Origin: Eledone cirrhosa
Taxonomy: Eukaryota
Length of the DNA: 64,000 nt
NCBI GenBank assembly: GCA_964016885.1
Contig: OZ024745.1
Location: forward strand, 123,132,001 to 123,196,000
Direction: 5' to 3'
Positions 3,591 through 62,072 of the stretch are shown here, piece after piece; positions within the stretch are counted from its first letter, which is position 1; the number at the start of each line of letters is the position of its first letter. Made by a program: the position numbers and the translations under genes. The notes below the pieces were generated by a model, which was not told where the DNA came from, searched no databases, and worked only from the letters and a program-made list of their open reading frames with translations.

Positions 3591-3777
3591 CAGTGAAATT
3601 CCGTTATAACGAAATTCCGTTTACGAAAAATAAAATTCGTTGTAACGAAAAATTCTTTATAACGAGATCGACCTAAAGAAATCGAGCGTTTGTTTGTTAT
3701 TACTTCGGGGATTGAAAAAATTTCGTTATACTGAAAAATTCGTTATAATGGTATTCGTTATAACGGAATTTTACCTG
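3591..3777. mobile_element. pogo/Tigger-like MITE
   Basis: TA|CAGTGAAATTCCGTTATAACGAA ... TTCGTTATAACGGAATTTTACCTG|TA: imperfect TIRs, TA flanks, internal CGTTATAACG motifs. Confidence 0.8.
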
Positions 3778-4279
3778 TAATAATAATAACAAATGATAGT
3801 TACAACATTAACAACAGGAATTAGATAAACAAATAAACACAATAATATAGAAACACATTAAAAAAACAACCTTAAAACAAAATTGGCAAACTTTATCTCA
3901 CTTTTGCCATCTTTTACCTGTTTCGTTTTGTTTAGTGTTGTTGTTGTTGTTGTTGTTGTTTTTCTCTCTTTCTCTCTCTTCGTCTGATTACAGGTGTTTG
4001 TACACCTGTAATCTTATTACGAGAATACGTGCGCGTGTGTGTGCGAATGTTCGAAGTGGATCGTTCTGTGAGCGCGTGTGTCTTCAATGTTATGAATGAA
4101 TAAAATTTGGTCTGGGATGAATGAAAATACGAGCATAGAGACGTTTAAAACTTATATGTAGATCATGTTTTTCATACATACACGCTCCTGTATCTCTGTG
4201 TATACATACACAATGTATATCGGATAATCGGATAATCGGATAGATATGTTCGCTAAAAAAAGTCTTATATTAATGTGCA

Positions 4280-11229: not shown

Positions 11230-11354
11230 TATATAGGGAGAAATATGTATGCAGTAGATGTACAGGGAAATTAGACAGTAGAAGTTGCATTGATAGACAC
11301 ATTTTTCAGATGTAGGAGGGCGCTATAGAAATGGTGGATAGCTTTATTTCCCAT

Positions 11355-12275
11355 TACTCCAGTTTACTCAGCTGTAGAAATGAGATGATAGGACTGGGGT
11401 CCCTATCATTCCACTGTAAAGTGGTCATGGAGATGCCATGGCAAAAAAAAAGCACCCAGCCAACACTGTAAAGTGGACGTGTAGGCGCCACAGGAAAAAA
11501 GCACCCAGCCAACACTGTAAAGTGGACGTGTAGGCGCCACAGGAAAAAAGCACCCAGCCAACACTGTAAAGTGGACGTGTAGGCGCCACAGGAAAAAAGC
11601 ACCCAGCCAACACTGTAAAGTGGACGTGTAGGCGCCACAGGAAAAAAAGCACCCAGCCAACACTGTAAAGTGGACGTGTAGGCGCCACAGGAAAAAAAGC
11701 ACCCAGCCAACACTGTAAAGTGGACGTGTAGGCGCCACAGGAAAAAAGCACCCAGCCAACACTGTAAAGTGGACGTGTAGGCGCCACAGGAAAAAAGCAC
11801 CCAGCCAACACTGTAAAGTGGACGTGGAGGCGCCACAGGAAAAAAGCACCCAGCCAACACTGTAAAGTGGACGTGTAGGCGCCACAGGAAAAAAGCACCC
11901 AGCCAACACTGTAAAGTGGACGTGTAGGCGCCACAGGAAAAAAGCACCCAGCCAACACTGTAAAGTGGACGTGTAGGCGCCACAGGAAAAAAGCACCCAG
12001 CCAACACTGTAAAGTGGACGTGGAGGTGCCACAGGAAAAAAGCACCCAGCCAACACTGTAAAGTGGACGTGGAGGTGCCACAGGAAAAAAGCACCCAGCC
12101 AACACTGTAAAGTGGACGTGGAGGCGCCACAGGAAAAAAGCACCCAGCCAACACTGTAAATGAGGTTGGTGTTAGGAAGGGCATCCAGCTGTAGAAATCA
12201 AGCCAGAATCAGTTACCGTCCCACCCTTGCAAACAGGGAAAAGCAGACGTAAAATGATGATGATGATGATGATAT
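11355..12275 (+). mobile_element. 5'-truncated SINE family B carrying ~15 tandem 49-bp units
   Basis: Body CTCCAGTTTACTCAGCTGTAGAAATGAG, array GCACCCAGCCAACACTGTAAAGTGGACGTGTAGGCGCCACAGGAAAAAA, then GTTAGGAAGGGCATCCAGCTGTAGAAA and an (ATG)n tail. Confidence 0.85.
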
Positions 12276-12743
12276 CATCATCATCATCATTTTACGTCCG
12301 CTTTTCCCTATATATATATATATAGTAAGCAGGAATGAAGTATCAATTTAGCATCATATACATATATTCACTTGTGACACACATTTCCCAATCAACCAGC
12401 TAAAGATATGATTGATGATGATTGGGCCCTGACTCTGGTATCAGTGGCTTAACAGCCTTGGGATGAGCTATTGATTCAAACGGCCTGATTGTGACTGATC
12501 ATATCTTGAGCTGATCAACTAAAAACACACATCACAAGTGAATATAATATATATATATAATACTAAATTGATACTTCATTCCTGCTTACTAACTATTGAC
12601 ACTTTGCATGTTATGGATGCCAAAGCTGATGACGACACAAACGTTGAATCCTACATTGATAACTTGATCTACATAATAGCATTGAGTGCTCAAACTGGTG
12701 AACCATCAGTAACTCAATGTTACACACCAAACAACATACATAT

Positions 12744-12902: not shown

Positions 12903-13367
12903 AAGAATGAGAAATAAAATAGAGGGCTCGATAATGATAATATATATATATCAAAATAGTTTCAGAAGATCCCGTTAAGGGTGAAAGCAACGATTCTGTG
13001 CTGAAACTTTAATCTGTTATTTTAATATATATATAAATACGAAGACACAAAGCAGGCTTTGTTTAGAAAGGGCTAGGGGATTTGAAAATTAGGTAGTAAC
13101 ATGTACTTACGCTGTATTTGACTAAATAGAATTAGTCTGTTAATTAGGATTTTAAAAAACCCTCTGAATGGGAAAAAGGATGAATATTGACGTTCATGGG
13201 ACACAAACCTACATCTTTGGTTTGCCGGACCAATGTGTTACCATTGTAACACTCTGCTCCCATGTATGTCAATACTCATCCTTTTTTCTATTCGGGGAGA
13301 TTTTTAAAATCCCAACAAACAGACTAATTCTTTTTAGTCAAATACAGCCTAAGCACATGTTACTACC

Positions 13368-13407
<40 letters not shown>

Positions 13408-16991: not shown

Positions 16992-17051
<60 letters not shown>

Positions 17052-17052
17052 T

Positions 17053-17169
17053 GGAAAAAGTATGACCCCGACGGCAGAACTCAAGCCGTTTCGACGGCTA
17101 TTTCTGGACTATTTCCAGAAATAGCCGTCGAAACGTCTTGAGCTCTGCCGTCGGGGTCATACTTTTTCC
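17053..17169. repeat. Near-perfect GC-rich hairpin palindrome (~56-bp arms); related copy at 56880-57035
   Basis: GGAAAAAGTATGACCCCGACGGCAGA..CTATTTCTGGA / TCCAGAAATAG..TCTGCCGTCGGGGTCATACTTTTTCC. Confidence 0.9.
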
Positions 17170-17319
17170 TATTTCCCACTCTACTACCCTAAGTATTGAG
17201 TACTCTGGTGCGTTATGGTCCATCTGGTTCCTTACCACATTTCCTTTGTTATATATATATATATATATATATATTACTTCAAAATATTAATAAATATAGG
17301 CATTCATGTGATCAAATAT

Positions 17320-17584: not shown

Positions 17585-18566
17585 ACACAGTAATACAGAA
17601 GACCCGACATTCCATGGATACAAGCCGAAGCTGAAGCATATAGACAGTATGCCCCCACCCCCTCCAACTCTAAAGTGGTCGTGTAGGTGCCACGACAAAA
17701 AGCACCCAGCCCACCCTGTAAAGTGGTCATGGAGGTGTCACAACAAAAAAGCACCTAGTCTACACTGTAAAGTTGTCGTGGAGGTGTCACAACAAAAAAG
17801 CACCCAGCCCACACTGTAAAGTTGTCATGGAGGTGTCACAACAAAAAAGCACCCAGCCCACACTGTAAAGTTGTCGTGGAGGTGTCACAACAAAAAAGCA
17901 CCCAGCCCACACTGTAAAGTGGTCGTGGAGGTGTCACAACAAAAAAGCACCTAGTCCACACTGTAAAGTGGACGTGTAGGTGCCATGACAAAAAAGCACC
18001 CAGCCCACACTGTAAAGTTGTCATGGAGGTGTCACAACAAAAAAGCACCCAGCCCACACTGTAAAGTGGACGTGGAGGTGTCACAACAAAAAAGCACCCA
18101 GCCCACACTGTAAAGTTGTCGTGGAGGTGTCACAACAAAAAAGCACCCAGCCCACACTGTAAAGTGGTCGTGGAGGTGTCACAACAAAAAAGCACCCAGC
18201 CCACACTGTAAAGTGGTCGTGTAGGTGTCACAACAAAAAAGCACCCAGCCCACACTGTAAAGTGGTCGTGGAGGTGTCACAACAAAAAAGCACCCAGCTC
18301 ACACTGTAAAGTGGTCGTGGAGGTGTCACAACAAAAAAGCACCCAGCTCACACTGTAAAGTGGTCGTGTAGATGTCACTGTAAAAAGCACCCAGCACTCA
18401 CTGTAAATGAGGTTGGTGTTAGGAAGAGCATCCAGCTGTAGAAATCAAGCCAAAATCAGTTCTGTATGAGCTAAACATGGTCACCTGACCTGACATTGCC
18501 AACAACAGGACAACCCGTCTAACCCATACTAGCGTGGAAGAATGGATGTAAAACGGCGATGATGAT
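17585..18566 (+). mobile_element. RTE LINE 3' end with ~15 tandem 49-bp units in the 3' region
   Basis: Begins with CAGTAATACAGAAGACCCG (..VIQKTR, the end of the RTE ORF as at 26997), then array, GTTAGGAAG.GCATCCAGC segment and AACCCAT.CTAGCGTGGAA..(ATG)n tail. Confidence 0.85.
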
Positions 18567-18720
18567 ATATAAATATATATACAAATATATTAAATTCATA
18601 GGGATATATCATCATGTATATATTTAGACATAGTCACAGATACATATATGAGTGTGGCTACCTTCCACGGTGTGGCTCAATGAAAACATTTTATTAAGCA
18701 AATAATTATTAATCAGAGCT

Positions 18721-19285
18721 ATATATAAAAGTTCAAGTTTGAAGAATTATTAGATAAAATACAGTCTTTCCTCTCCCTAGTCCACAGAAATCAACCACAG
18801 AAATAATCATTTAAACGAGGCTATAAGTTTAAAATGTAACTATGAAGAAATAATAGACAAATGAAACAGACTATTTTCCGCAAGGGACAGCCAGATAAAA
18901 TTTATCTAGTCATTCCTTTTAGGCCGTAGAAATTAACTAGACAGATGATCAACTAAACAGAGTTAGGTCTAAAATATAAGTTAGAAGGAATTTTGGTAAA
19001 GTTTATGTGCATTTTTTTCTTCTAACTTATATTTTAGACCTAATTCCGTTTAGTTGATCATCTGTCTAGTTAATTTCTACGGCCTAAAAGGAATGACTAG
19101 ATAAATTTTATCTGACTGTCCCTCGTGGAAAATAGTCTGTTTCATTTGTCTATTATTTCTTCATAGTTACATTTTAAACTTATAGCCTCGTTTAAATAAT
19201 TATTTCTGTGGTTGATTTCTGTGGACTAGGGAGAGGAAAGACTGTATTTTATCTAATAATTCTTCAAACTTGCAATTTTATATAT
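18721..19285. repeat. Long near-perfect inverted repeat (foldback), ~255-265 bp arms, ~30-bp spacer
   Basis: CAAGTTTGAAGAATTATTAGATAAAATACAG...AAGTTAGAAG mirrored by CTTCTAACTT...CTGTATTTTATCTAATAATTCTTCAAACTTG; TA-rich flanks. Confidence 0.95.
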
Positions 19286-19662
19286 ATATATATACAAACA
19301 GAGGTATCCACAGTAAGTTGTGGGATCTATTCTGCATGAAGAACTCGATGTAATCCATATGTTGAAAATGTTGTAGGTTAAGATAAATCTCGGAAAACAA
19401 TAAAACATTAAAATATAAGTTAAAACAATGAAATAAAAAATCAAGTCATTATATATATATATATATATATATAATAAGGAAATGACAGGAGGCTGGACTT
19501 GTGTAAATCCTTGAAAGGTTTATTATACTATGATCATTTCAATGACCAGGTTCCGTATGAATCCGGTGATATCAACAGGTATTCGAAACATAATAAGTGA
19601 ATGTAATAGGTAAAATCCATGGGGCTGAAAATCAAAGGCCCGAGGACGACTGCCATCCAGCA

Positions 19663-21021: not shown

Positions 21022-21340
21022 TATATAGCAGGTGTGGTGGGATTTGACAGGGTAACGAGTAGGAGGGAGGGTGATCTCTGACAGCCAAGATTGAGTGGTT
21101 ACTGATGTCAGGATTTTAGAGGGGCATTTGTAGTGATGGTGAGAATAATTAAGGAGTTATAGTGGAGGGGCATGGTTGTGAGGTGGGGGGTATAAAGGAA
21201 TGGATAGAACAGCTACTATATATATATAGTAACAAGACACAACATAGCCATAAAGAATATTTAAACTCCACTTTGGTATTGAGTACTCATTCTCATGTCC
21301 ATCAATAACACATATGTGTATATATATATATATATATATA

Positions 21341-22462
21341 ATCATCATCATCATCGTTTAACATCTATTTTCCATGCTAGCATGGGTTGGACGGGTTTGT
21401 CCCACTTGAGGCAGATTGGTCGGGTGATCGTGTCTCGCTCGTACAGAACTGGATGCCCTTCCTAACACCAACTACATTTACAGTGTGGACTGGGAGCCTT
21501 TTTACCGTGTCTCCTACACGACCACGTTACAGTGTGGACTGGGAGCCTTTTTACTGTATCTCCTACACAACCACTTTACAGTGTGGACTGGGAGCCTTTT
21601 TACCATGTCTCCTACACGACCACGTTACAGTGTGGACTGGGAGCCTTTTTACTCTGTCTCCTACACAACCACTTTACAGTGTGGACTGGGAGCCTTTTTA
21701 CCATGTCTCCTACACAACCACTTTACAGTGTGGACTGGGAGCTTTTTTACTGTGTCTCCTACACAACCACTTTACAGTGTGGAGTGGGAGCCTTTTTACT
21801 GTGTCTCCTACACAACCAGTTTACATTGTGGAGTGGGAGCCTTTTTACTGTGTCTCCTACACAACCACTTTACATTGTGGAGTGGGAGCCTTTTTACTGT
21901 GTCTCCTACACAACTAGTTTACATTGTGGAGTGGGAGCCTTTTTTACTGTGTCTCCTACACAACCAGTTTACATTGTGGAGTGGGAGCCTTTTTACTGTG
22001 TCTCCTACACAACCAGTTTACATTGTGGAGTGGGAGCCTTTTTACTGTGTCTCCTACACAACCAGTTTACATTGTGGAGTGGGAGCCTTTTTACTGTGTC
22101 TCCTACACAACCACTTTACATTGTGGAGTGGGAGCCTTTTTACTGTGTCTCCTACACAACCAGTTTACATTGTGGAGTGGGAGCCTTTTTTACTGTGTCT
22201 CCTACACAACTAGTTTACATTGTGGAGTGGGAGCCTTTTTTACTGTGTCTCCTACACAACCAGTTTACATTGTGGAGTGGGAGCCTTTTTACTGTGTCTC
22301 CTACACAACCAGTTTACATTGTGGAGTGGGAGCCTTTTTTACTGTGTCTCCTACACAACCAGTTTACAGTGTGGACTGGGTGCTTTTTGTCATGACACCT
22401 ACATGATCACTTTACAGTGTTGACTGGGTGCTTTTTGTCATGTCACCTACACGACCACTTTT
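21341..22462 (-). mobile_element. RTE-type 3' fragment with ~20 tandem 49-50 bp units (GGAG/CTCC variant)
   Basis: (CAT)n tail, CCATGCTAGCATGGGTT, GGATGCCCTTCCTAACACC, then TGGGAGCCTTTTTACTGTGTCTCCTACACAACCACTTTACAGTGTGGAC repeats. Confidence 0.85.
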
Positions 22463-22629
22463 CAGCAGACGGAGGTGAGAGGATGGAGTAGAGGTGTGGG
22501 ATGAGGTGGGGTGGTGTCTTCATGCATGGAGATGTTATAAAATAGTGAATATGATAGAGTGAAGACCCTTAGAGATGCATAAAGAAGTTGCCATCAGTCG
22601 CTACAAGGAAACAAACCTTGTATCTCCTA

Positions 22630-27808: not shown

Positions 27809-28548
27809 GTTATAATAATAAATTTGAAGACTAAAATCCAAAGAGGGCTCGATAAGGATAAATATATATCAAATAAATAAGAACCATAGAGCAAATATTT
27901 ATTAAAATAACAGATTAAAGTTTAAGCAAAGAGTCGCTGCTTTCACCCTTAACGGGATCTTCTGAAATTAAAAAAATCAATCTGTGAACGCAGAAGTAAA
28001 TATTTTGAAAAACGTTACAACCGAAGGAAAACTGGAAGACGATACTTTGGTTTGTGGAGACGTTCCCTGGCAATGAACGGAAAAAAATTGCGTGTTTTTG
28101 TGTACATGCTTGTATTACTACTCATGCCGGGTGATTTCGTGTATGTACGTATATAGATGCGTGCATCTACATATTTAATTATTGTTGATTTCAATTACCT
28201 CTGTAATTTATTTACATTATTCTTAACTCTGAAGCCGAGAATCATTGGGTTTCCTAAATAGAATTTTAGTCTACGACTTCATTTATACCTTTAACTTGGT
28301 TTTGTCTTTGCGTGTAATTGTTTTCACCGCTCCAAATAATGACATATTATCTTCGTTTTTTTCCCCGTTCATTGCCAGGGAACGTCTTCACGAACCAAAG
28401 TATCATCTCTCTGTCTTCCTTCGGTTGTAACATTTTTCGAAATATTTACTTCTGCGTTCACAGATAGATTTTTTTAGTTTCAGAAGATCCCGTTAAGGGT
28501 GAAAGCAGCGATTCTTTGCTTAAACTTTAATCTGTTATTTTAATAAAT
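27808..28548. mobile_element. MITE/foldback element with ~190-bp inverted arms (27897-28088 / 28357-28548); fragments at 12958-13025, 32775-32946, 52524-52732
   Basis: ATTTATTAAAATAACAGATTAAAGTTTAAGCAAAGA..TTTCACCCTTAACGGGATCTTCTGAAA and its reverse complement; flanked by (TA)n. Confidence 0.85.
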
Positions 28549-28549
28549 T

Positions 28550-29982
<1,433 letters not shown>

Positions 29983-29985
<3 letters not shown>

Positions 29986-30760
29986 TGTTATACTTTGGGA
30001 GGGTCATGTTGCCAATAAGAAACACACGCACCAGTTGCTTTCACTTCAATTTATTATATATTTATAAATTTATAAGTTTATAAATTTATAAATTTATAAA
30101 TTTCTGGTTGGTTGGTTGGTTGGTTCCACAACCAGATAGTTGTTTATATATAGTCATAGTTCTTTCGTCACACACTCTGTGACCTCTTCAGTGACTGGGG
30201 ATTCCTTTCTTTGTTTCTGTGCCTCTCCTTTGTTCTGTCCTACGCCATTTTGTTTCTGTGTGTCTGTTGTGTGCTCAGTCTGCCCATGCGCCACATCCGG
30301 GTGTCTGTGTGTGTTTATGTTCATTTATTTATTTGTTTATTTACATGTTACTGGTTGGTTGTTTGTTCTATGTGTGTGTGTGTTTTCATTTTGTCCTTAA
30401 TTGTAAGTTGTGATGTTGCTGTTCCACTCATATTTTCTATTTAATTTTGGTTGTAATTCTTTTATGTTTATTGCCTCTGTAATTTGTCTAAACATTGCGT
30501 CTTTTCTGTGTGTAGATTCTATTTTTATTTCTATGTTCTCTAATTTACCCTTGTGTTCTATTTTTGCATGTTGGTAGAGTACAGATGATTCTTTATTATC
30601 TTGAAGGTCTCGCCAGTGTTCATTTATCCGTTCCCCTACACTACGAGCTGTCTCACCTATGTACACTATATTTTTGTCTCTACATTGTCCTTCAGTACAT
30701 CTTATGCTATACACTACATTTCTAGTTTTACAGTTAATATGGGGGCTTATTTTACAGGTT
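29983..30760 (-). mobile_element. Penelope-like retroelement 3' fragment: GIY-YIG endonuclease (30397-~30760), 3' region with hammerhead (30152-30196) and terminus
   Basis: NCKTRNVVYSIRC..C..IVYIGETARSVGERINEH..HAK..H..EAINI..QPKLN is a PLE-type GIY-YIG domain; downstream aguca-CUGAAGA-g-GUCAC..GUGAC-GAAA-gaac-UA^ugacu. Confidence 0.88.
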
Positions 30761-31254
30761 ATACATTGAATGTATAACCTGATATATACATGTATGTGTA
30801 TGTGTGTTTGTGTGTGTGAATGTGTATGTGTGTGAGTTTGTATGTGTGTTTGTGTGTGCATAGTTATATTTATTATAGAAAGAGCACAAAGATGGTGAAA
30901 AAATGTAGAGGAACTGTAACTGAAAAAAAAAGAAGAAAGTGAAGTAAAGAAGGGAATTAACTATCATCAGCTATCTATCATATATCTTCATGATTTCAGC
31001 ACCTTTCGACAGGATCACTTTACCCAATGGTGTGAATAGTATTAAAATCTAGTTTTAAACATGTTTGGCATAGAAATATATATGGCAATAATAATTAACA
31101 TGTACATATAAATATATATATTAACATGTAAATATAAATATATATAGTAATTAACATGTACATATAAATACATATATTAATTAACATATACATATAAATA
31201 TATATATATTAATTAACATAGTCTGGAATGCCTATCTTGCTCAGAAAGGCAGTA

Positions 31255-32175
31255 AGTAGTACTGGTGCCACAACAAAAAGTACTCAGTCCACCCTGTAAA
31301 GTGGTAGTACTGGTGTCACAACAAAAAGTACTTAGTCCACCCTGTAAAGTGGTAGTACTGGTTCCACAACAAAAAGTACTCAGTCCACCCTGTAAAGTGG
31401 TAGTACTGGTGCCACAACAAAAAGTACTCAGTCCACCCTGTAAAGTGGTAGTACTGGTGTCACAACAAAAAGTACTCAGTCCACCCTGTAAAGTGGTAGT
31501 ACTGGTGCCACAACAAAAAGTACTCAGTCCACCCTGTAAAGTGGTAGTACTGGTGCCACAACAAAAAGTACTCAGTCCACCCTGTAAAGTGGTAGTACTG
31601 GTTCCACAACAAAAAGTACTCAGTCCACCCTGTAAAGTGGTAGTACTGGTTCCACAACAAAAAGTACTCAGTCCACCCTGTAAAGTGGTAGTACTGGTTC
31701 CACAACAAAAAGTACTCAGTCCATCCTGTAAAGTGGTAGTACTGGTTCCACAACAAAAAGTACTCAGTCCACTCTGTAAAGTGGTAGTACTGGTTCCACA
31801 ACAAAAAGTACTCAGTCCACCCTGTAAAGTGGTAGTACTGGTTCCACAACAAAAAGTACTCAGCCCACCCTGTAAAGTGGTAGTACTGGTTCCACAACAA
31901 AAAGTACTCAGCCCACCCTGTAAAGTGGTAGTACTGGTTCCACAACAAAAAGTACTCAGCCCACCCTGTAAAGTGGTAGTACTGGAGTCACAAAAAACTG
32001 CTTCCAGTACATGCTGAAAAGTGGTTAGCATTAGAAAGGACACCAAGCCATAAAAACCAATCCATAAACAAAGTACACGAGCAGAGCATGGTCACCTCAC
32101 TAGTCTAGTTTCAATACATGATAATCTGTCTAACTTATGCAAACATGAAAAAATAGACATTTTAAGCAGTGATGA
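31255..32175 (+). mobile_element. Diverged RTE-type 3' fragment with ~15 tandem 48-bp units
   Basis: GTACTCAGTCCACCCTGTAAAGTGGTAGTACTGGTTCCACAACAAAAA repeats followed by a decayed GGTTAGCATTAGAAAGGACACC segment and tail. Confidence 0.8.
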
Positions 32176-39123: not shown

Positions 39124-39305
39124 TTGTCTATGTAGTGGGTCGTCAAGTATAAAATTTGTAGAAATTTGCTTTTTTTCTACAAATTTCTACAAATTTCGTA
39201 CTTGACGACCCAATACATAGACAATTGGGTCGTCAAGTATGAAATTTGTAGAAATTTTCTTTTTTTTCTACAAATTCCTACAAATTTCGTACTTGACCAC
39301 CCAAT
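39124..39305. mobile_element. Tandem pair of tiny mariner-like MITEs
   Basis: TGGGTCGTCAAGTA.GAAATTTGTAGAAATT / AATTTCTACAAATTTCGTACTTGACGACCCA occurring twice. Confidence 0.7.
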
Positions 39306-39624
39306 ATATTGCTCTAATGTATAGTTATAGAGTGTCTGTGTGTGTGTGCTGTGTGTGTGTGTGTGCTGTGTGTGTGTTTGCATAAATATAGATTAGCTTT
39401 TTCTACTTTTCATGATTTAATGTGATCATTTATATTTGTAGGATGTAAATATATGTGTAACATGTATTTATTTATCTATCTAGATATGTTCACAAATGTG
39501 TATGTGAGACAGAATGTGTGTGAGTTTAAGCAAGAGAAAGAGTGTGTGTGTGTGTGAGTTTGAGAAAGTATGTATGTATTTGAAAGAGAGGGTATGTGTG
39601 CGTGAGTGAGAGAGAGGGGGAGAA

Positions 39625-43416: not shown

Positions 43417-44027
43417 CCTGGCGAGACCTTCAAGATAGTAAAGAATCATCTGTACTCTACCAACATGCTAAAATAGAACATAAGGGTAAATTAGAGAACA
43501 TAGAAATAAAAATAGAATCTACACACAGAAAAGACGCAATGTTTAGACAAATCACAGAGGCAATAAACATAAATGAACTCCAACCAAAATTAAATAGAAA
43601 ACATGAGTGGAACAGCAACATCACAACTTACAATTAAGGACAAAATGAAAACACACACGCACATAGAACAAACAACCAACCAGTAACATGTAAATAAATA
43701 AACGAATATAAACACACACAGACACCCGGATGTAACACATACACAAACTAAGCACGCAACACACACACAAAAACAAGATGGCGTAGGACAGAACAAAGGA
43801 GAGGCACAAAAACAAAGAAAATAATCCCCAGTCACTGAAGAGGTCCCAGAATGTGTGACGAAAGAACTTTGACAATATATAAACAACCATCTGGTTGTGG
43901 AACCAACCAACCAACCAGAAATTTATAAATTCCTAAATTTATAAATTTATTATAATAAATTGAAGTGAAAGCAACTGGTGCGTGTGTTTCTTATTGGCAA
44001 CATGACCCTCCCAAAGTATAACAATAT
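43417..44027 (+). mobile_element. Second copy of the Penelope-like GIY-YIG 3' fragment, hammerhead at 43830-43873
   Basis: WRDLQDSKESSVLYQH..QPKLNRKHEW; guca-CUGAAGA-g-GUCcC..GUGAC-GAAA-gaac-UU^ugac; same terminus CATGACCCTCCCAAAGTATAACAATA. Confidence 0.88.
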
Positions 44028-44081
44028 CGGTTTCAACACACGTTTTCAGATAAAGAATCTTGCTAAACAAATTCAGAAACG

Positions 44082-46510: not shown

Positions 46511-47440
46511 AGTCCGTGAATCGAACTCCCAACCTCACGATTGCAAGCTCAATGCTCTAACCACTAAGCCATGCACCTTCAAAGTAAACAGTAAAAGAGT
46601 ATATATCTCTCAATATTCTACTTTATGTTCTCCTTGCTTCTAAAATCCCAAAGTAGAATTCTATAATCTTCATTTCTCTACCATAGTTATCTATCATTAT
46701 CCTATTTCTTTCAAATGCAATAAATTATAGTTCAGTTAATAAGAATGCCAGAGATTCTTGTTTATTTATTTTAAGTTATAATTTTAGCACCAATAAACAT
46801 AATATATGAAATTTAAAAAATCATAAACTCATTCATCCCTGGATAATAGTATGCAGCTAAAACAGTCTTATATTTTTTTCTTATTATTATTAAAGCTAAT
46901 GTGTGTGTGTAGCCATTTGTATGCATTAGTATTCATGTATGTGTCTGTGTGTGCGGCTATGTAGCCATTAGTATGTGTAAGTATTTACAAATACACACTC
47001 ACATATATATCATGCTATATATATACAGATGTCTCCCGGTATTCGCAGAAGTTACGTTCCTAGAAAACTCGCGAAGAGTAAAAACCGCGAATATTGAATG
47101 TGGTCCATAAAAATGCCTATAAACGTCAAAACATAACATAAAATATAGGCCGGCAAATACAGTATATTGTTGTTACTAATTTAGCGTTAAAAAGCATTAA
47201 AAAATATATTGCCACGAAAAAAGCCATAAAAATATTGCAGAAGATATTTACGATTCCGCGAAAATGCGGTGGTTTCCGCAAACAATTATTGCAAACAGAT
47301 ATAGCCAATCCTCTGCGAAACACGCGTAACAGGTCGATACGCAATAAATATTTTTCATATGCAAACGAAACTTCCTTGTTTTTTCTATTACACACACATA
47401 TATATAAATATATGTGTGTCTGTGTCTGTGTGTGTGTGTG

Positions 47441-47612
47441 TAATAGAAAAAACAAGGAAGTTTCGTTTGCATATGAAAAATATTTATTGCGTATCGACCT
47501 GTTACACGTGTTTCACAGAGGATTGGCTCAAGGTGACCCAGAGCAGTTATGGACCCACCTCCAGTATTGAGCTGCTCCTCAGACTGGTGATGTGACAAAA
47601 GATATATTTTTG
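47441..47612. mobile_element. ~200-bp microsatellite-embedded MITE (complete copy 55193-55398)
   Basis: Imperfect TIR TAATAGAAAAAAC.AGGAA.TTTCGTTT.CATATGAAAAATAT shared between the loci, with homologous interior. Confidence 0.75.
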
Positions 47613-47929: not shown

Positions 47930-48477
47930 GAAGAAATTGGTAGTTTACTTGAAGCATTGTGTAGTGAGGTATAAACGCTTGAAGTTGGAAAGCCAGAACA
48001 ATGCAGGTTTGGATATAGAATATAAATGCAAAAGATATCGCTGATAATTAGTCTTTTACCTTAATTTATTAGTATATCCTGACTGGTCAGCTTGACTTGG
48101 CAGCCCACTTCAAACACTGGATTAACCCCTTTACTTTCCTCAGACGAAGAGATATTATCTCGAAATATCAGTATATACTAATAAATCAAGGTAAAAGACT
48201 AATTGTCACCGTTATCTTTTGCATCTTCCACTCTTGTCATGCCATTGGCTGTAGAAAACAACAGCCAATGGCATGACAAGAGTGGAAGATGGTTTTTTGA
48301 AGGTGTTTTTTGACGATAAACCCCAGTGAGAAAATTTGCTCCGAACGAATTGCATGTGTCCGAAGGAACCTGCAGCCGTAGAATCAGCCAGATCAATACA
48401 GTGATCATGTCTATATATATATATATGTATATATTAGTTTTGCGAGGTTTTTTATATGAAATCGTGTGTCGAAACAA

Positions 48478-48989
48478 ATATTGTTATACTTGGGGAGGGT
48501 CATATTTGTGTAATATTGCCAGAATTAATAACAGAACACACTCACTGTTTGGTTGGTTTTCGCTTCTCGCTTCTGTGTCTTTTATATTGGTAATCTAACT
48601 TACTCGGTCCTCAATGTTGCCATTGACTGACCGACGGTCAAAAATAATACAGATACAATATAGACACAAACACATACATATAGTTTATCATAAATCTTTC
48701 GTTGCACATCTGCAACATCGTCAGTGGTGTTATCGTTTCCTCCTGTTGTATTATATGTCTACGCCATTTTTATTCAGTCTGTCTATATATTTATTTATTT
48801 ATTTATTTGCTTGTTTGTTTATTTTATTTTGTCTTCTTTGCGCATGCGTTTGCGTGTGTGTATAGTGTTTTGTTTGCTGATATAAAAGACACAGAAGCGA
48901 GAAGCGAAAACCAACCAAACAGTGAGTGTGTTCTGTTATTAATTCTGGCAATATTACACAAATATGACCCTCCCCAAGTATAACAATAT
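48478..48989 (-). mobile_element. 512-bp element with perfect 110-bp terminal inverted repeats enclosing a hammerhead motif (48686-48729)
   Basis: Arms 48478-48587 / 48880-48989; CUGACGA-u-GUUGCA gaug UGCAAC-GAAA-gauu-UA; terminus matches the PLE end at 29983 in 24 of 25 positions. Confidence 0.82.
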
Positions 48990-50144
48990 ATGTATATAAA
49001 TATATATATATATATATGTGTATGTGCATTCTATAAAGATTCAAAGACAAGATTACAGTTAATGTTTGCATGTCAACACATTCCTGATCTTCTTATAAAT
49101 AATTATGTTTATCACCTTAGTAGAAATCTTGGACCAAACATCCTCAGGACTAAAATATTTTAAAGAAGAATTCGATGAATGGATAAGAGTATATTAACTG
49201 AGTTAGCATAGTTGTGCATGTCATTTATCTTGTGTGTGTGCGTGCGTGCGTGTGGTTTATATAGGCAGCGAATTGACGAAGTTTTTATTGTGTTGAAAAG
49301 ACTATTTGTGCTGTTTGGTTTATCACACACACATTATACCAGCAGAAAGATTTATTTTTCTGTTGGCCGATCCAGCATTTTAGAATGGTACTCTCAATTA
49401 AATCATGCAAAACCATTTTGTTGGTCTGAGAGCTGATGATGGTGAAAATGTGTGTGTGTGAAAACTTGTCTTGTACATCGCCTTTCTCTATTTACTTCTT
49501 CTAGTCACTTCTATATATCAACACACTATTCCTTGTCCTCCTCCTATTTCAGTGATTCCTGTTTTACGTCTGCCTGTCACCCACATTGTGGATTGTCTCT
49601 TTGTTGCCCACTGGCTGCTGGTCTCTCCTTTGGGGCATTTTTGCCCATCACTGTCTTTGACAGCATTTAGCTGTTTTAACGGCTGTTGTAGCGATGAGTT
49701 TTCTCATTTTTATATGTATTGAAATACACCCACGCTTCATCTCGATCAGAGACGACATTGATTTTTTTTATTTTTAAAATATTTCCCTTGCTAAAACAGT
49801 AATTAGCTTTGAAAGCCCCACAATAGTCTTCATACTCATTATAGGGTCCTTTTTGATGCAATAATTTATATTCAAATGCCCTTCATTGAAGTGACCTTTT
49901 GATATACAGGGATATGATATACTTACACAGATTTTGGAAAGAATGCTTAATGGTGTTCTTATGCTCTGAGTTCAAATTCCACCAACATCAGCTTTGCCTT
50001 TCATCAATTCAGGATCAATAACTAACGTACCAGTCCAGAGGTAGTTGAATGGCAGAAGAGTTATAAGTCAAATAGGATGACTTATAATATCTGTTTGGAC
50101 TTTGTGCATTCTGAGAACAACAATGCCCACGTTGGTGATTAAAT

Positions 50145-50336: not shown

Positions 50337-51062
50337 TTAATAGTAGAGGATCAGTGAACTGAGAACATTTTATTGTGGCACCAACACTAGAGAGGCTGTC
50401 TGTGACATGACTAAAGCAGTCTCTCTATTCTATGTTGTAACCATTTGATTGCAAATCACTTTATAGGATGTACTCAATGCTTTGTGTAGCAGCACCAACA
50501 GAAAAGTTGCCTTGTTCTTTGCAAGGCTAAAAACACTTCTCAGCTTCATGGTGCCTTCATTCTTCGAATGCATATGTGACTGGGAATATGAACAGAAGAG
50601 GATTGATATCAAAATGGATGAAAGTGGAGACAATATGATTATGATTACGAGGGTAAACAGAGTGATAATATGATAGGGGATGGTGTAGTGGGGAAGGAGT
50701 AATGGCTGGGTGTTGAATGTTGATAGGCAATGCATGAACAGCATGGAGAAATATTAATAATGAATGTTTATATAAATGTATATGATATTTCAACCAGAAA
50801 ATGATAAAATAAACATGTGTGACACCTTTAACCTTTTTCTTTCCATTTTTTCTATATATTTCTTCCATTTCTCACATAATTCATTTTCGTTTGTTTTTGT
50901 TTTTGCAAAGGATTTACATCCAAAGTGTTATATCTTCTAATTTTCTAAACAAATACTTAATGATGGTTTTTGTTTTTGGTATTGATATTTTCATATATAC
51001 ACACACATATATATGTGCAAGCATGGAAAAATTATGATGATGATTATATATACATATATAAC

Positions 51063-51258
51063 ATTCCCATTATACCAACACAATCAATGTGGAAACTATT
51101 AAATTCACTGTAGCAAAGTATATTTACATAGTAAAAAAATGATTTTCGGTGATATCAACTTTTATATATATAATATATATAATATATATATATTTTTTAT
51201 ATATTTATATTCCTTCCATATACTGTACCGATTGTATTGTTATTTCTGTTTACCTTTT

Positions 51259-51313
<55 letters not shown>

Positions 51314-51416
51314 TTGATTTCACAGAAAGTCTTTTATATTTTTTTACTATATAAATATACTTTGCGACAGTGAATTTAATGGTTTCCACATTGATTGTGT
51401 TGGTGTAATGGAAATT
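51063..51416. repeat. Inverted repeat with ~78-bp arms
   Basis: CCATTATACCAACACAATCAATGTGGAAAC..GTATATTTACATAGTAAAAAAAT mirrored at 51338-51416. Confidence 0.85.
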
Positions 51417-51971
51417 TTCTTAATAATTGTCAATGTTATAAAAGTATGCAAATTAGCTTTCGCATCTATAAGCTAACCACTATGTAGTTATGAATTACTT
51501 TTTCTATCAGGCACATAAACGTAACAGAGTTAGGTGAGATTTCATGTTTTCAGTGAACAACAGTGTTCTATACCAGAGGAGTAGGTAGTAACTAAGTCAG
51601 CCATATTGTTGGTTACCTTGTCTAATCTGATGTTGACACCCAAAGGATGTCTTGGTTTTTAATATATTAAAACATAAACTCTGGTATATTCTGGCCGTAC
51701 AGTTACTTTATGGCCAGAATATACCAAACTAGGAAAATTATGCCAGCAACTGTCTGGAAAACACAGTAGGACAATGGGTAGTAACAAAATAAAAAGACAT
51801 TAGTCACTACCCTGGCATGAATAACTGGTTGCAATGTAATCATTAATTAACATGAAATAGTTTTCTGGAGAAAGACAATGAGAATAACATATTCCTCAGA
51901 TGAGATAACTGAAACATAGATAGAAAGGAAAGCTATTTTAAATATATAAAAATGAGTTTTAATTTATTTAA

Positions 51972-56040: not shown

Positions 56041-56150
56041 GTATATATAAAAAATTAGATTAAGGATGTCATGTCTGAGAATATCAGAAGCATGCACCAT
56101 ATCACCTGTGGAAATAAGCTCTAAGATTCCAGGTAGTAAATCCAAACATT

Positions 56151-56857
56151 TATATAAAATTAAAAGTAAGATGATGTATGTATGTAAAATAAACACATCA
56201 AACAGTTACAGGGGATAATTTGTGAAGAGTGTAACCACACATAGTTACGGAGGTAACATATTAAAAATTAACAAGAACCTAGCATATAGATACCTTGCAA
56301 TAATGATTAATCTCCTTTGTATATATTCCATTGAAGAAATATATTTCACCATTAATCAGAGAATTATAGAAGTCAAATCTTGGATCATTGGCAAAAGAGA
56401 AGATTTAACCATTTATAATCACACACTACAAACAAATCAAAGGATAACGGCTCCTAAGTATGTTTTAGTAGAGCTTATTATGTTGAAAGGAATCGGCTGT
56501 TATTTCTAGCTGTCGATAACTCTTTTCACACCACTGGCTTGATGGCGGAGTGACATGTGTTTTTTAAACTACACGTGCTCTTACGCCACTATCCCCTGAT
56601 TTGCTTGTAGTGTGTGATTATAGCTGGCTAAATCTTCTCTTTTGCCAATGATCCGAGATCTGACATCTCTGATTCTCTGATTAATGGTGAAATATATTTC
56701 TACAATGGAATATATATTCTAGATTCTTGTTGATTTTTAATATGTTACCCCCCCCCCCATAACTATGTGTGTTTACACTCTTCACAAATTATCCCCTGTA
56801 ACTATTTGATGTGTTTATTTTATATACATACGTCATTTTACTTTTAATTTAATATAT
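56151..56857. repeat. Diverged long inverted repeat, ~270-300 bp arms
   Basis: AAATTAAAAGTAA..CAGGGGATAATTTGTGAAGAGTGTAA..GGATCATTGGCAAAAGAGAAGATTTA mirrored in 56585-56857. Confidence 0.9.
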
Positions 56858-57104
56858 ATATATATATATATATAACAAAGGAATTGTGGTAAGGAACCAG
56901 ATGGACCATAACGCACCAGAGAACTTAATACTTAGGGTAGTAGAGTGGGAAATAGGAAAAAGTATGACCCCGACGGCAGAGCTCAAGCCGTTTCGACGAC
57001 TATTTCTGGACTCAGTCCAGAAATAGCCGTCGAAATTTACATTCAGTCTTAACATTGAGTGTTAATACTCCAATAACGCACACAATTATTGAAATTATTG
57101 AATA

Positions 57105-57147
<43 letters not shown>

Positions 57148-57711
57148 ATTCAATAATTTCAATAATTGTGTGCGTTATTGGAGTATTAACACTCAATGTT
57201 AAGACTGAATGTAAAAATTAATTAGTTCTGTGTATGAACATAAATAAATACTATAATATAATATACTATAGTATAATATAATATTATATATATCATCATC
57301 ATCATCACCATTTTACATCCATTCTTCCACGCTAGCATGGGTTAGATGGGTTGTCCTGTTGTGGGCACTGCCTGGTTGGCTGACCATGTCTTGCTCATAC
57401 AGAAACTGATTCTGGCTTGATTTCTACAGCTGGATGCTCTTCCTAGCACCAACCTCATTTACAGTGTGGGCTGGGTGCTTTTTTGCTGTGGCACCTCCAC
57501 GACCACTTTACAGTGGAATGACAGGGACTCCAGTCCCTATCATCTCATTTCTACAGCTGAGTAAACTGGAGCAATGTGAAATAAAGTGTCTTGCTCAAGG
57601 AAACAACTCATCACCCGGTCTGAGAATTGAACTCACAACCTTTCAATTGCAAGGCCAATGCTCTAACCACTAAGCCATGTGCCTCCATATATTTATTTAT
57701 ATATATATTAG

Positions 57712-58481
57712 ATAGTAATTGGAAGAACCTCAGCACAAGGAAGCTGTAAAAACAGCAAAATGCCGCCAATGGTGGTGGTAGGTAAAATTTACCCCAAAGG
57801 TAGAAACCAGTGGCTAGAAATGTGTTGGCTTGTAGAAGCAATAGGAAGAAATGTGAAAGGGATAAAATAGATGAGAGGGGATTTCACAAACATTAAATTT
57901 TCTCATCAGCTTTTAGACCGTCTGTGGTTTCAATGATTTAACTAAAAGGACCACGTAAGATAGACAGCTCATACCAATGGAGAAATAAATATCTCTGATG
58001 GTATAATGTTTATGAGAGAAACGAATAGATTTACAGGCAGATGAACAGGTCAGAGAGACAAGAATGAAGTCATCCACTCAGCTTCAAGTCACTGTAAGAA
58101 AGGGGAGAACAATGGCCCTCTAAGTGGAAGTGGTGTGTTTCTCTCTCTGACTCCTCTGCCTATCAATCTATTCATTTCTCCCACAAACATTATACCAACA
58201 GAGATACTTAATTCTCCGTTGGTACAAACCATCTATCTTACATGGTCCTTTTAGTTAAATCATCAAAACCACAGGCAGTCTAAAAGCTGATGAGAAAATT
58301 TAATATTTGTGAGATCCCTTGTCTATTTTATCCTGTGCTCCTTTCTTCCTATTTCTTCTACAAACCAACACACTTCTAGCCACTGATTTCTATCCTTTGA
58401 GGTAAACTCTACCTGATGCTGCCATTGATGGCATTTTGATGTTTTAACAATTTCCTTGCACTGAGTTCTTCTAATTACTAT
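57712..58481. repeat. Diverged long inverted repeat, ~345-bp arms
   Basis: e.g. TTAAATTTTCTCATCAGCTTTTAGAC / GTCTAAAAGCTGATGAGAAAATTTAA and GATTTAACTAAAAGGACCA / TGGTCCTTTTAGTTAAATC. Confidence 0.9.
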
Positions 58482-58668
58482 ATGAATTCTAATACACTCG
58501 CATTTCAAACTCGATATTCGAGATACATTTGTTTATATATATATCGGGAATATTACCCACCACATATATATATGTATGATGAACAGACCTGCTTCAAAAA
58601 ATGTTTTTCGTTTCAGCCCCTGCTCACTCTCCTCTATCTTTCTATTTCTTCTTTAATTTCACATTCTA

Positions 58669-58704
58669 TTTTCTGATGACGGACTAGCGTCCAAAACATT
58701 AAGA
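58669..58704 (+). ncRNA. Degenerate family-B hammerhead motif
   Basis: CUGAUGA-c-GGAC uagc GUCC-aAAA-ca-UU^aaga; GAAA mutated. Confidence 0.5.
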
Positions 58705-59914
58705 GTCTTTTCCTACAATATGAAGTGCAAAACTAATATATTTCTTCAATTTACTGCATCGTTTGCTTAATAATTTCTATTTACTTTTTGAATATATAAT
58801 ATATATAGTAATTTATTTAGGCTGATCCAGTAGCCTGTTTTGTGGGAGGTCCGTCATATATATAGAACATCGTTTTATTTTAGTAACATTTTCTAAAGTT
58901 AAATTTAACTGGAACATATCATCAGATGTCAGATAATCATCTATGTCTATGCAGTGTAGTTTTGTAATTTCAAAACACTTGTTTCAGTTTCATGTTTTTG
59001 ACTTGCATTAGATTTCTGCTACTTACTGTTACATACATATGTTTATGTGTGTTCATGCATCTGCATACACGCATATATCCATGCCCTTACACATATACAT
59101 ACTTTAGTGCATGTAGCTATTTTACAGAGTATTGAATAGAAAGTAGCAACAAGTAGCATAATATAAAAAGAAAGAAAAATCGGTAGTTGGATATCTTCTT
59201 TCTTCTTTTCCTTTCAAAGGATTTACTTTTTAGAAGAAAAAAAAATGACTGCTACAGGATCAATATTCACTTACTTTCATTCAAAGCTTTCATTCTCCCT
59301 TCCTATCCAATCCTTACCACACTAACTCTTTATTTCTCTTTTCATTTTATATACACATCCTCTTTTCTTTCTTTCTGCTTTATTTATTAATTTAATTCAT
59401 TGCATTCTATTCGCTAATATCAAAATAATATCATATCTCTTGTCAAATTTTGCATTTTACTCAGGTATGTAAAAGAACAGGTACATAAAATTACAGCTAT
59501 ACTAACACATGTTACAATAACACACACATTTTAGATTTTACACAGGTAAAAATAAAAGAACAAGTAAATTAATAGATACCACCATAAAATATATTTTAGA
59601 TTTTACATAAGTATACAAAATACACAGGTAAAATTACACACCCCATCATAAACCTGTTTTTTCAAATTTTTCACAGGTACACAATACAAAACAACTCAAC
59701 TTAAAAAGGCTGTCACCATTTTTGTTTTTCCTCTATATTTCTTCTGCTCATTCTTGAAGGAACATGTGTTAGAATAAAGGTTCTCAAACTCCCCCCCCCC
59801 CCCACAATCCTCACGGCCATGTAATACCCTCAGCACCCCCAACCCTATTACCAGAGAGGCCTGCCTACATGCAAATTGTAAATAATATATAATGAATAAA
59901 ATCATTAGATAGAC

Positions 59915-61165
59915 ACAATGCTTTGCATCTTAGAGCTATGGCCCTTTATGGTTTGAGTTCAAATCCCGCCGAGGTTAACCCTGCTTTTCATCCTTACGAG
60001 GTCGATAAAATAAAGTACCAGTAATGCACTGGGGGATGATTGCTGGCCTTGTGCCAAAAGTAGAAACAATTATTATCATTATTACACACATACACACACA
60101 CACGTACACATATATATATATATATATATATATGCAAAAAGTAAACAGAAACAACAAAACAAACAACACAGTACAATAAAGAAATATATTAGTCTAGTGC
60201 GTGATATAGTAGAAAAAAAGTCTCTATATTTCGGACACTAGTCCTTCATCAGAAGAGAGAATGAGAAGTAAAAGATGGAATAGAAAAATAGAGAGTGAGA
60301 AAAAAAAGGAATGGAAGAAAATATTTTGAGAAAAAGCACGTGTATATTCAGTCAGCCATTTTGGAGAAATAGGGGCAGGGGATTGATAGTACTGGTAGAG
60401 TATCAGATAAAATGTCTTGTGGCATTTAGTTACTGCCTTTTACATTCTGAGTTCAAATCTTGCCAAGGCCAACTTTGCTTTTCATCCCTTCTGGGTCGAT
60501 AAAATAAAGTACCAGTCATGTATTATTGGCTTTGTGACTAAATTAGAAATCATTATTGGTGGATTGGCAGTATCGGTAAAGGGTCGGACGCCATGCTTTG
60601 CAGCAAAGAGTTATGGCCCTTTATGTTCTGAGTTGAAATCCTGCCGAGGTTAACTTTGCCTTTCATCCTTACGGGGTCAATAAAATAAAGTACCAGTAAT
60701 ACACTAGGATAATTGCTGGTCTTGTGCCAAAAGTAGAAACAATTATTATATGTACTATGGCGGTGGATTGGCAGTATCGGTAGAAGGTCTGATGCCATGT
60801 TTTGCAGCATAGAGTTACGACCCTTTATGGTCTGAGTTCAAAATCCTGCCGAGGTTAACTTTGCCTTTCATCCTTATGGGGTCAATAAAATAAAGTACCA
60901 GTAATGCACTGGGATAATTGCTGGCCTCGTGCTAAAAGTAGAAACAATTATTTTGTATAATGTATACGTTTATGAATATGTATGTATTTATATTTGAATA
61001 CTGAAACATAGATAAGTTACCTCCCTTTGTGTGACATACAAAAGAACAAGAGCATTAAATCCCGCCGAGGTTAACTTTGATTTTCATCCTTACGAGGTCG
61101 ATAAAATAAAGTACCAGTAATAAACTGGGATAATTGCTGGCCTTGTGCCAAAAGTAGAAACAATT
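59915..61165 (+). mobile_element. Cluster of five SINE-A copies or fragments, three head-to-tail (60380-60950)
   Basis: Repeated SINE-A motifs. Confidence 0.85.
60221..60256 (-). ncRNA. Minimal family-B hammerhead motif
   Basis: ucuu-CUGAUGA-a-GGAC uagu GUCC-GAAA-ua-UA^gaga; intact core. Confidence 0.7.
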
Positions 61166-61894: not shown

Positions 61895-61898
<4 letters not shown>

Positions 61899-62072
61899 AT
61901 AAATAAGAGAGACGGTTTATTCGTACATCTTCATTTTATTATCTAATTCCATTATATGTATTTCAAAGATGCAAGGATGGTTATATAATAACCCCCTACC
62001 ACTCTTTCTTTCAGGTAATGGAATTAATAAAATGAAGATGTACGAATAAAACCATCTTTCTTATTTATTATA
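61895..62072. repeat. Inverted repeat with ~57-bp arms
   Basis: TAATAAATAAGA..TTTATTCGTACATCTTCATTTTATTA / TAATAAAATGAAGATGTACGAATAAA..TCTTATTTATTA. Confidence 0.85.

What the first reader, a model, noticed from the sequence alone, without database searches (positions are those of the whole stretch)
48478..48989. MITE-like element with perfect 110-bp TIRs that carries a hammerhead and a Penelope-type terminus
Seen: perfect inverted arms enclose a hammerhead core with a 6-bp stem II. The outer 25 bp (TATTGTTATACTTGGGGAGGGTCAT) differ at one base from the 3' terminus of the GIY-YIG elements at 29983 and 44027. Layout and orientation (terminus, TTGGTTGGTT, hammerhead ~200 nt in, TACGCCATTTT) are shared, while stem II sequence is different. 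Known: PLEs can make inverted partial terminal repeats at 5' junctions. Inference: a non-autonomous ribozyme-bearing retroelement that looks like a DNA MITE. This may also be the origin of other foldbacks in the window.
Basis: partly seen in the sequence, partly recalled or inferred. Interest (0 to 1): 0.75.

Follow-up and report, generated by a model that had tools for sequence, protein, structure and literature searches.

The report
Head-to-head Penelope retroelement stump
This mirror-ended repeat is not a mobile unit of its own but a one-off pair of cut-short ends of an abundant Penelope-like jumping gene, likely made when both broken DNA ends began copying the element's RNA at two fixed sites; the layout is already described, though the parent element's enzyme may belong to an unnamed lineage.

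Summary
The arms, hammerhead motif and shared terminus are real, but this is neither a MITE nor a non-autonomous family. The inner junction occurs once in the genome. All 39 other scored copies lack the second arm at this position; most run on towards an RT + GIY-YIG ORF. The 'Penelope terminus' is codons 1-9 of the element's ORF. The terminus has 6,674 exact copies. In 35 of 35 foldbacks (94 nt to about 5 kb) exactly one end carries the tail, on the short arm in 18. That favours two primers at two sites over cDNA snap-back. Hammerhead stem I is weak; cleavage is untested. The layout is published (PMC8557442, PMC3846280), and the scan found it before on other DNA of this genome. One side lead: the parent RT has a telomerase-sized insert between motifs A and B, unlike the C-terminal-endonuclease PLE rows I read.

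The parts
48411..48432 (.). Left (TA)n tract; target-site duplication cannot be read
   Evidence: it adjoins a fragment of another repeat whose other copies lack the tract here
48433..48477 (-).
   Evidence: 100% to the stretch that follows the terminus in tandem copy L031; present in 15 of 30 loci
48478..48879 (-). Long arm: last 402 nt of the element unit (3' UTR / pseudo-LTR), 5'-truncated, non-coding except for the ORF start
   Evidence: 97.8% to L031 unit 3656-4053; other copies run on past this point
48478..48503 (-). Conserved terminus = start codon and codons 1-9 of the RT-EN ORF (MTLPKYNNI), shared with the sister family
   Evidence: in tandem copies the frame stays open from this ATG for 657 (L035), 546 (L040) and 453 aa (L123); same peptide at 44002 and 30007
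48686..48729 (-). Minimal type I hammerhead motif: full core, unpaired base before a 6-bp stem II, one-pair stem III (G-U), weak stem I (3 of the first 4 pairs); predicted cut after 48691
   Evidence: cleavage not tested
48879..48879 (.). Head-to-head junction with 1 nt shared by both arms; single copy in the genome
48880..48989 (+). Short arm: last 110 nt of the same element in the opposite orientation, ending at site 1 with no tail
48990..49018 (.). Right (TA)n tract, followed by single-copy DNA
29982..30768 (-). Sister-family PLE stump, no tail: GIY-YIG C-terminus, hammerhead at 30191 with 5-bp stem I
43419..44075 (+). Sister-family PLE stump with a 48-nt tail: GIY-YIG C-terminus, hammerhead at 43835

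Best explanation
The 557-bp insertion (48433-48989) is a single-copy pair of 5'-truncated 3' ends of an abundant RT + GIY-YIG Penelope-like element, joined head to head between (TA)n tracts, and it likely arose when both ends of a cut in the TA target primed reverse transcription on the element's RNA, one at each of two fixed sites inside the ORF start, after which the two unfinished cDNAs would have annealed and been joined. Shown: single-copy junction, autonomous parent family, two end sites (after codon 9, and 43-58 nt further on), one tail per foldback, free arm lengths, short overlaps at junctions. Inferred: cutting by the GIY-YIG domain at (TA)n, priming by both strands, joining by microhomology. 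The copy is inert: it has no RT or EN sequence and is not amplified as a unit. The hammerhead is a passenger of the pseudo-LTR.
For: Junction 30-mer 1 copy in 3.0 Gb; 39 of 39 other scored hits cover only 1-402 or 2-402 (40 of 1,437 candidates scored). [quoted passage not shown] Its AlphaFold model (pLDDT 90.8) matches telomerase RTs best (Foldseek ranks 1-3; VIA Z 15.2, rmsd 3.8, 360 aligned to 7trd_A). Tandem units of 4,053 nt show tail = ORF continuation. Tail on exactly one outer end in 15 of 15 converging pairs among the first 100 listed termini and 35 of 35 overall; 18 on the short arm, 15 on the long arm, 2 equal (long/short counted by hand). Control: 0 converging pairs within 6 kb among the first 100 tail-bearing termini (by eye) against 15 within 5 kb among the first 100 of all termini. 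34 spans measured, all different, 94-4901 nt; 21 of 26 simple junctions overlap by 1-9 nt. PMC11167929: a purified PLE protein cuts and extends both strands, prefers AT-rich DNA and starts at two RNA sites that bound the tail.
Against: No empty site was found, so target duplication or deletion is unknown. PMC11167929 saw no difference in start site between the two strands in vitro, so it does not explain why each foldback uses one site of each. Many copies have no inverted arm at all. Nine of the 35 foldbacks have extra sequence or interruptions and were left out of the junction count. Pfam and PDB sequence searches with the family protein itself gave nothing; RVT_1 and GIY-YIG hits came only from homologues, mostly below cut-off. 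No copy with a fully open ORF was seen among the loci fetched.
Confidence: 0.85

Rival explanations
1. Snap-back: one cDNA is primed, its 3' end folds back and copies itself, giving the short inverted arm; the tail is then trimmed from one end.
For: Arms are often near-identical (0 differences in L001, L020, L039, 9 of 20 loci done before the script failed). Three foldbacks are symmetric palindromes (L089, L095, L126). PMC3846280 proposes self-priming for inverted junctions.
Against: The short arm must be a copy of the long arm, so it cannot carry a tail the long arm lacks; 18 of 35 do. In one search arm-to-arm identity was not clearly higher than to other copies (others as close in 8 of 9 loci).
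Confidence: 0.08
2. A non-autonomous, ribozyme-bearing retroelement of fixed 512-bp structure mobilised in trans.
For: Short stumps can be amplified locally: one 197-nt foldback is repeated four times in tandem in L099.
Against: Junction single-copy; no two of 34 spans alike; interior is plain 3' UTR of the autonomous family.
Confidence: 0.03
3. A DNA-transposon MITE inserted at TA whose TIR resembles the PLE end by chance or by adjacent insertion.
For: Perfect TIR-like arms and TA flanks.
Against: The arm is the first codons of a retroelement ORF; the left end carries a tail outside the 'TIR'; no fixed-size copies.
Confidence: 0.01
4. Two independent insertions next to each other in one (TA)n, later fused by deletion.
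For: The family is abundant (6,674 termini) and targets TA tracts.
Against: Independent insertions would give tail-tail and tailless pairs; 0 of 35 (p 3e-5 for the 15 unselected pairs). No TA lies at the junction.
Confidence: 0.03

Closest known systems
Insertion unit of canonical C-terminal EN+ Penelope-like elements (Craig et al. 2021, PMC8557442, Fig. 2 legend; Pen2/Pen2a of Adineta vaga, Arkhipova et al. 2013, PMC3846280)
   Same: 5' truncation, partial tandems, adjacent inverted truncated copy, tail at one end only, pseudo-LTR that includes the first codons of the ORF (12 aa, 22 with tail, in Pen2a; 9 and about 24-28 here), hammerhead in the pseudo-LTR, Asn-rich stretch in the ORF.
   Different: Tail 43-58 nt against 30-40; the one-tail pattern is strict in the sample (35 of 35) where the papers say 'often' or 'optionally'; both arms are short, so it mimics a MITE.
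PAc / Poseidon_Ac of Anolis carolinensis (Frangieh et al. 2024, PMC11167929)
   Same: Two RT start sites inside the ORF that bound the tail; both target strands cut and extended; AT-rich targets.
   Different: Start sites at 111-118 nt of the ORF there, at about 26 and 69-84 nt here; hammerhead overlaps the start codon there, lies 187-221 nt upstream here; PAc has no linker zinc finger.
Nematis clade of PLEs (rows in Figs S2, S7 of PMC8557442)
   Same: C-terminal GIY-YIG with CCHH and a short linker finger (CX4CxxC-X7-C in 61 of 97 aligned relatives), as in the Nematis rows and unlike the long Neptune linker.
   Different: DKS instead of DKG; motif A Asp to motif B Gly is 129-135 aa in 97 of 97 rows against 60-63 counted by hand in the Penelope, Nematis and Neptune rows of Fig. 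S1.
Hydra clade of PLEs (PMC8557442)
   Same: (TA)n targets, KDHK and RW motifs, DKS/T, divergent motif B.
   Different: Hydra lacks CCHH and has no insert between motifs A and B; this family has both.
Minimal hammerheads of metazoan PLEs (Cervera and De la Pena 2014, PMC4209133)
   Same: Type I core, unpaired base 5' of stem II, almost no stem III.
   Different: Stem II 6 bp (7-8 there); stem I only 2 bp + mismatch + 1 bp (4-5 bp there and in the sister family); a single motif in this insertion, so no partner in cis.

Membership tests
MITE (DNA transposon) | many copies of fixed length with both TIRs | tested here: not met
MITE (DNA transposon) | target-site duplication | tested here: inconclusive
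   (TA)n on both sides; no empty site
Non-LTR retrozyme / non-autonomous PLE derivative | tandem or fixed-size repeated unit with hammerhead, amplified without ORF | tested here: not met
   junction single-copy; definition from 10.64898/2026.07.22.740005, part 1
C-terminal EN+ PLE | telomerase-like RT | tested here: met
C-terminal EN+ PLE | C-terminal GIY-YIG with CCHH and R, H, E, N residues | tested here: met
   motifs read and alignment; Pfam GIY-YIG above cut-off in homologue P0081, not in the family protein itself
C-terminal EN+ PLE | partial tandems forming pseudo-LTRs that include the ORF start | tested here: met
   L031, L035, L040, L100, L123
C-terminal EN+ PLE | inverted truncated copy and one-sided tail | tested here: met
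C-terminal EN+ PLE | hammerhead motif in the pseudo-LTR | tested here: met
   motif only
Minimal PLE hammerhead | helix I of 4-5 bp | tested here: not met
   3 of first 4 pairs, one internal mismatch, nearly family-wide
Minimal PLE hammerhead | self-cleavage | not testable with these tools
   needs an in vitro assay
Nematis clade | reduced CX2-5CxxC linker plus CCHH | tested here: met
   (comparison by eye with printed rows)
Nematis clade | no insert between RT motifs A and B; DKG | tested here: not met
   129-135 aa spacing; DKS in 80 of 97 rows, DKT 2, gap 15
Nematis / Neptune / Hydra clades | placement in an RT phylogeny with reference elements | not tested
Neptune clade | long linker between CxxC and the GIY strand | tested here: not met
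   7 aa here against about 25 in Fig. S2 rows
Hydra clade | CCHH absent; CxCX5C linker | tested here: not met
   CCHH present, CX4CxxC linker
Naiad / Chlamys | N-terminal endonuclease | tested here: not met
   EN is C-terminal

The most novel reading that the evidence does not exclude
The parent family marks an unnamed, widespread PLE lineage that joins a C-terminal Nematis-type endonuclease to an RT with a telomerase-sized insertion in the fingers (about 70 extra residues, conserved in 97 of 97 relatives), and its strict one-tail-per-foldback rule is the genomic print of an asymmetric enzyme dimer that primes the two target ends at two fixed RNA sites.
Probability: 0.35. Interest if true: 0.6.

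Novelty: new member of a known kind. Interest (0 to 1): 0.27.

Why it matters
The element itself is an ordinary dead stump. It is a clear warning that PLE foldbacks in (TA)n pass for MITEs in annotation. The family gives a large natural data set (thousands of termini) on an open question named in PMC8557442: how PLEs form inverted repeats and one-sided tails. The one-tail rule with free arm lengths argues for two primers at two fixed sites and can be tested in the existing in vitro system. If the RT insert is a true IFD in a C-terminal-EN PLE, it would change the statement that canonical EN+ PLEs lack the IFD and bear on the PLE-telomerase link.

Tried and rejected
The repeat finder on the whole window was swamped by TA repeats. 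Rfam gathering: 0 matches. Pfam and PDB sequence searches with the family protein: 0; a profile search of PDB gave only weak bacterial RT hits. The protein atlas was not available. Empty site: the right flank is single-copy; the left flank is a fragment of another repeat that continues differently elsewhere, so no TSD could be read. Sequencing runs: no RNA holder listed; contigs of 4 runs (at most 2 samples, 1 study) did not span the insertion. Hammerhead cut as the source of 5' ends: 1 of 62 arm breaks within 5 nt of the predicted site, rejected. Same-template test by arm identity: inconclusive, script stopped after 9 of 20 loci. Other foldbacks as products of this family: no blastn match; the A2 profile found no RT or EN in L102-L121. 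Only 18720-19286 was tested for layout; 58600-58830 is a high-copy repeat whose partner was not found. Motif search in the supplement of PMC8557442 found none of this family's motifs, but long sequence runs are cut there, so this is weak. Paper searches for an IFD in C-terminal-EN PLEs or a twin-priming model listed nothing that describes them; subscription papers and Repbase/Dfam were not searchable.

Full report
Observation. The two arms (48478-48587, 48880-48989) are perfect reverse complements over 110 nt. A hammerhead core with a 6-bp stem II lies on the minus strand at 48724-48691. The outer 29 nt match the ends of two other elements at 29982 and 44027 at 27 of 29, and those elements carry GIY-YIG C-terminal coding sequence. 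The left boundary should be 48433, since 45 nt outside the 'TIR' belong to the insertion.

Not a mobile unit. A genome search with the 512 nt scored 40 of 1,437 candidates. The window copy matched in full; the other 39 matched only positions 1-402 or 2-402. A 30-mer across the inner junction occurs once in 3.0 Gb, while the 33-nt terminus occurs 6,674 times. In the 29 other loci fetched, the 3' end is fixed and the 5' end varies.

The parent. [quoted passage not shown] Partial tandems give a unit of 4,053 nt in L031. In tandem copies the frame that starts at the ATG inside the terminus stays open for 657, 546 and 453 aa in L035, L040 and L123, and 129 and 175 aa in L031 and L100. So the shared terminus is codons 1-9, and the tail is the next 43-58 nt of the ORF. 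The sister family at 29983/44027 starts with the same nine residues, which explains the 25-nt match. No fully open copy was seen among the loci fetched. A homologue search returned 254 proteins at E <= 1e-10; the best (69%) is labelled Octopus vulgaris by its source. The model of 761 residues (pLDDT 90.8) matches telomerase RTs first.

The one-tail rule. Among the first 100 termini listed, 15 converging pairs lie within 5 kb. All 15 have the tail on one outer end only (L087 has an 11-nt remnant). Twenty more foldbacks seen in other loci follow the same rule, giving 35 of 35. L099's four tandem repeats count once, and L032 is read at its outer end. Left out: L043, L049, L080 (second arm is tail only or under 10 nt, all opposite a tailless end), L003, L027, L042 (internal inversions), L055, L064, L097 (partner unclear at that stage). 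The tail is on the short arm in 18, the long arm in 15, and 2 have equal arms (hand count). As a control, the first 100 tail-bearing termini hold no converging pair within 6 kb (by eye). The 34 spans measured are all different (94-4901 nt), and 21 of 26 simple junctions overlap by 1-9 nt. Tails end at 43, 45 or 57-59 nt, each at a TA step next to the flanking (TA)n.

Mechanism. Shown: two end sites, one of each per foldback, free arm lengths, short overlaps. Inferred: the endonuclease cuts (TA)n; each 3' end primes on the RNA at one of the two sites; the two unfinished cDNAs anneal and are repaired into a head-to-head junction. Snap-back cannot give a tail on the short arm alone, which is the case in 18 of 35. 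PMC11167929 (parts 1-2 of 4 read) shows cutting and extension of both strands and two start sites bounding the tail, but no strand difference in start site, so the coupling remains unexplained. PMC3846280 (passages read) argues for self-priming instead; symmetric palindromes such as L089, L095 and L126 may fit that.

Hammerhead. The core is complete and nearly invariant across copies, but stem I has 3 of the first 4 pairs with an internal mismatch, against 5 and 4 contiguous pairs in the sister copies. Stem III is G-U in the young copies and G-C in older ones. PMC4209133 (abstract and part 1 of 4 read) describes such minimal motifs, with helix I of 4-5 bp and low activity. Only 1 of 62 arm breaks lies within 5 nt of the predicted cut. 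It is likely a weak or inactive passenger here; untested.

Known or new. The layout is described in PMC8557442 (passages; supplement parts 54, 57, 58 and searches read): inverted 5'-truncated copy, tail often at one end. PMC3846280 notes that the pseudo-LTR and tail hold the first codons. The retrozyme preprint 10.64898/2026.07.22.740005 (part 1 of 5 read; supplements not seen) concerns tandem units, which this is not. Earlier notes of this scan report the same layout in other families of this genome and others; none matched this sequence. My reading was set before I saw them.

Side lead. In alignment A2 the distance from the motif A Asp to the motif B Gly is 129-135 aa in 97 of 97 rows, with 14 positions in the insert conserved in at least 80% of rows. 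By hand count from Fig. S1 of PMC8557442 it is 60-63 in Penelope, Nematis and Neptune rows, about 84 in one Naiad row and roughly 118-150 in two TERT rows (the TERT Asp position is assumed). The insert is modelled with confidence and is partly helical. The linker is short like Nematis, CCHH is present, and DKS replaces DKG. No described clade matches on all points. Three searches listed no paper describing it, but Repbase, Dfam and subscription papers were out of reach, supplement sequence runs were cut, no tree was built, and homology of the insert to the TERT IFD was not tested residue by residue.

Other foldbacks. None matches this family. The one tested in detail, 18720-19286, is another family with variable spans and a one-sided tail in 8 of 8 two-armed loci out of 10 fetched; no RT was found near it.

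Verdict. Real but ordinary: a one-off PLE foldback stump, new member of a known kind, interest 0.27.

Noticed in passing
L047:4208-6490, alignment A2 (model residues about 228-300): Parent RT has about 70 extra residues between motifs A and B (IFD position), conserved in 97 of 97 rows, with a C-terminal Nematis-like endonuclease; possibly an unnamed PLE lineage.
   Followed up: partly
window 18660-19286: Foldback of another family with a one-sided tail; same rule in 8 of 8 two-armed loci; no ORF partner found.
   Followed up: partly
window 12898 (-), 60252 (-), 58600-58830: A third hammerhead-like repeat family (4-bp stem II), high copy; 58623-58807 and 60117-60299 face each other; partner not found.
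   Followed up: partly
window 12323-12591, 13087-13372, 17050-17172, 27897-28548, 39130-39309, 47303-47528, 51060-51418, 56148-56859, 57036-57215, 57712-58481, 61895-62072: Further foldbacks, many beside (TA)n, none matching this family; candidates for the same mechanism in other families.
   Followed up: no
window 48222-48410: Fragment of a high-copy repeat with long inverted ends (L106/L107, L108); it breaks off where the (TA)n beside the tail begins, while other copies continue without TA. Raises the untested idea that flanking (TA)n is extended during insertion.
   Followed up: partly
L099:971-2063: One 197-nt foldback with tail repeated four times in tandem, separated by (TA)n.
   Followed up: no
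L034:787-2240, L007:1501-2397: Direct-orientation insertions in which a short tail-bearing stub and a (TA)n run sit at the 5' end of a tailless copy.
   Followed up: no
L036:3238-6084: Long Asn-rich low-complexity stretch in the N-terminal part of the ORF, like the N-rich inserts described for Adineta Penelope elements (PMC3846280).
   Followed up: no
window 31213-32091, 11354-12208, 17658-18415, 21320-22465: Arrays of a 49-bp tandem repeat related to a dispersed short repeat of the window.
   Followed up: no
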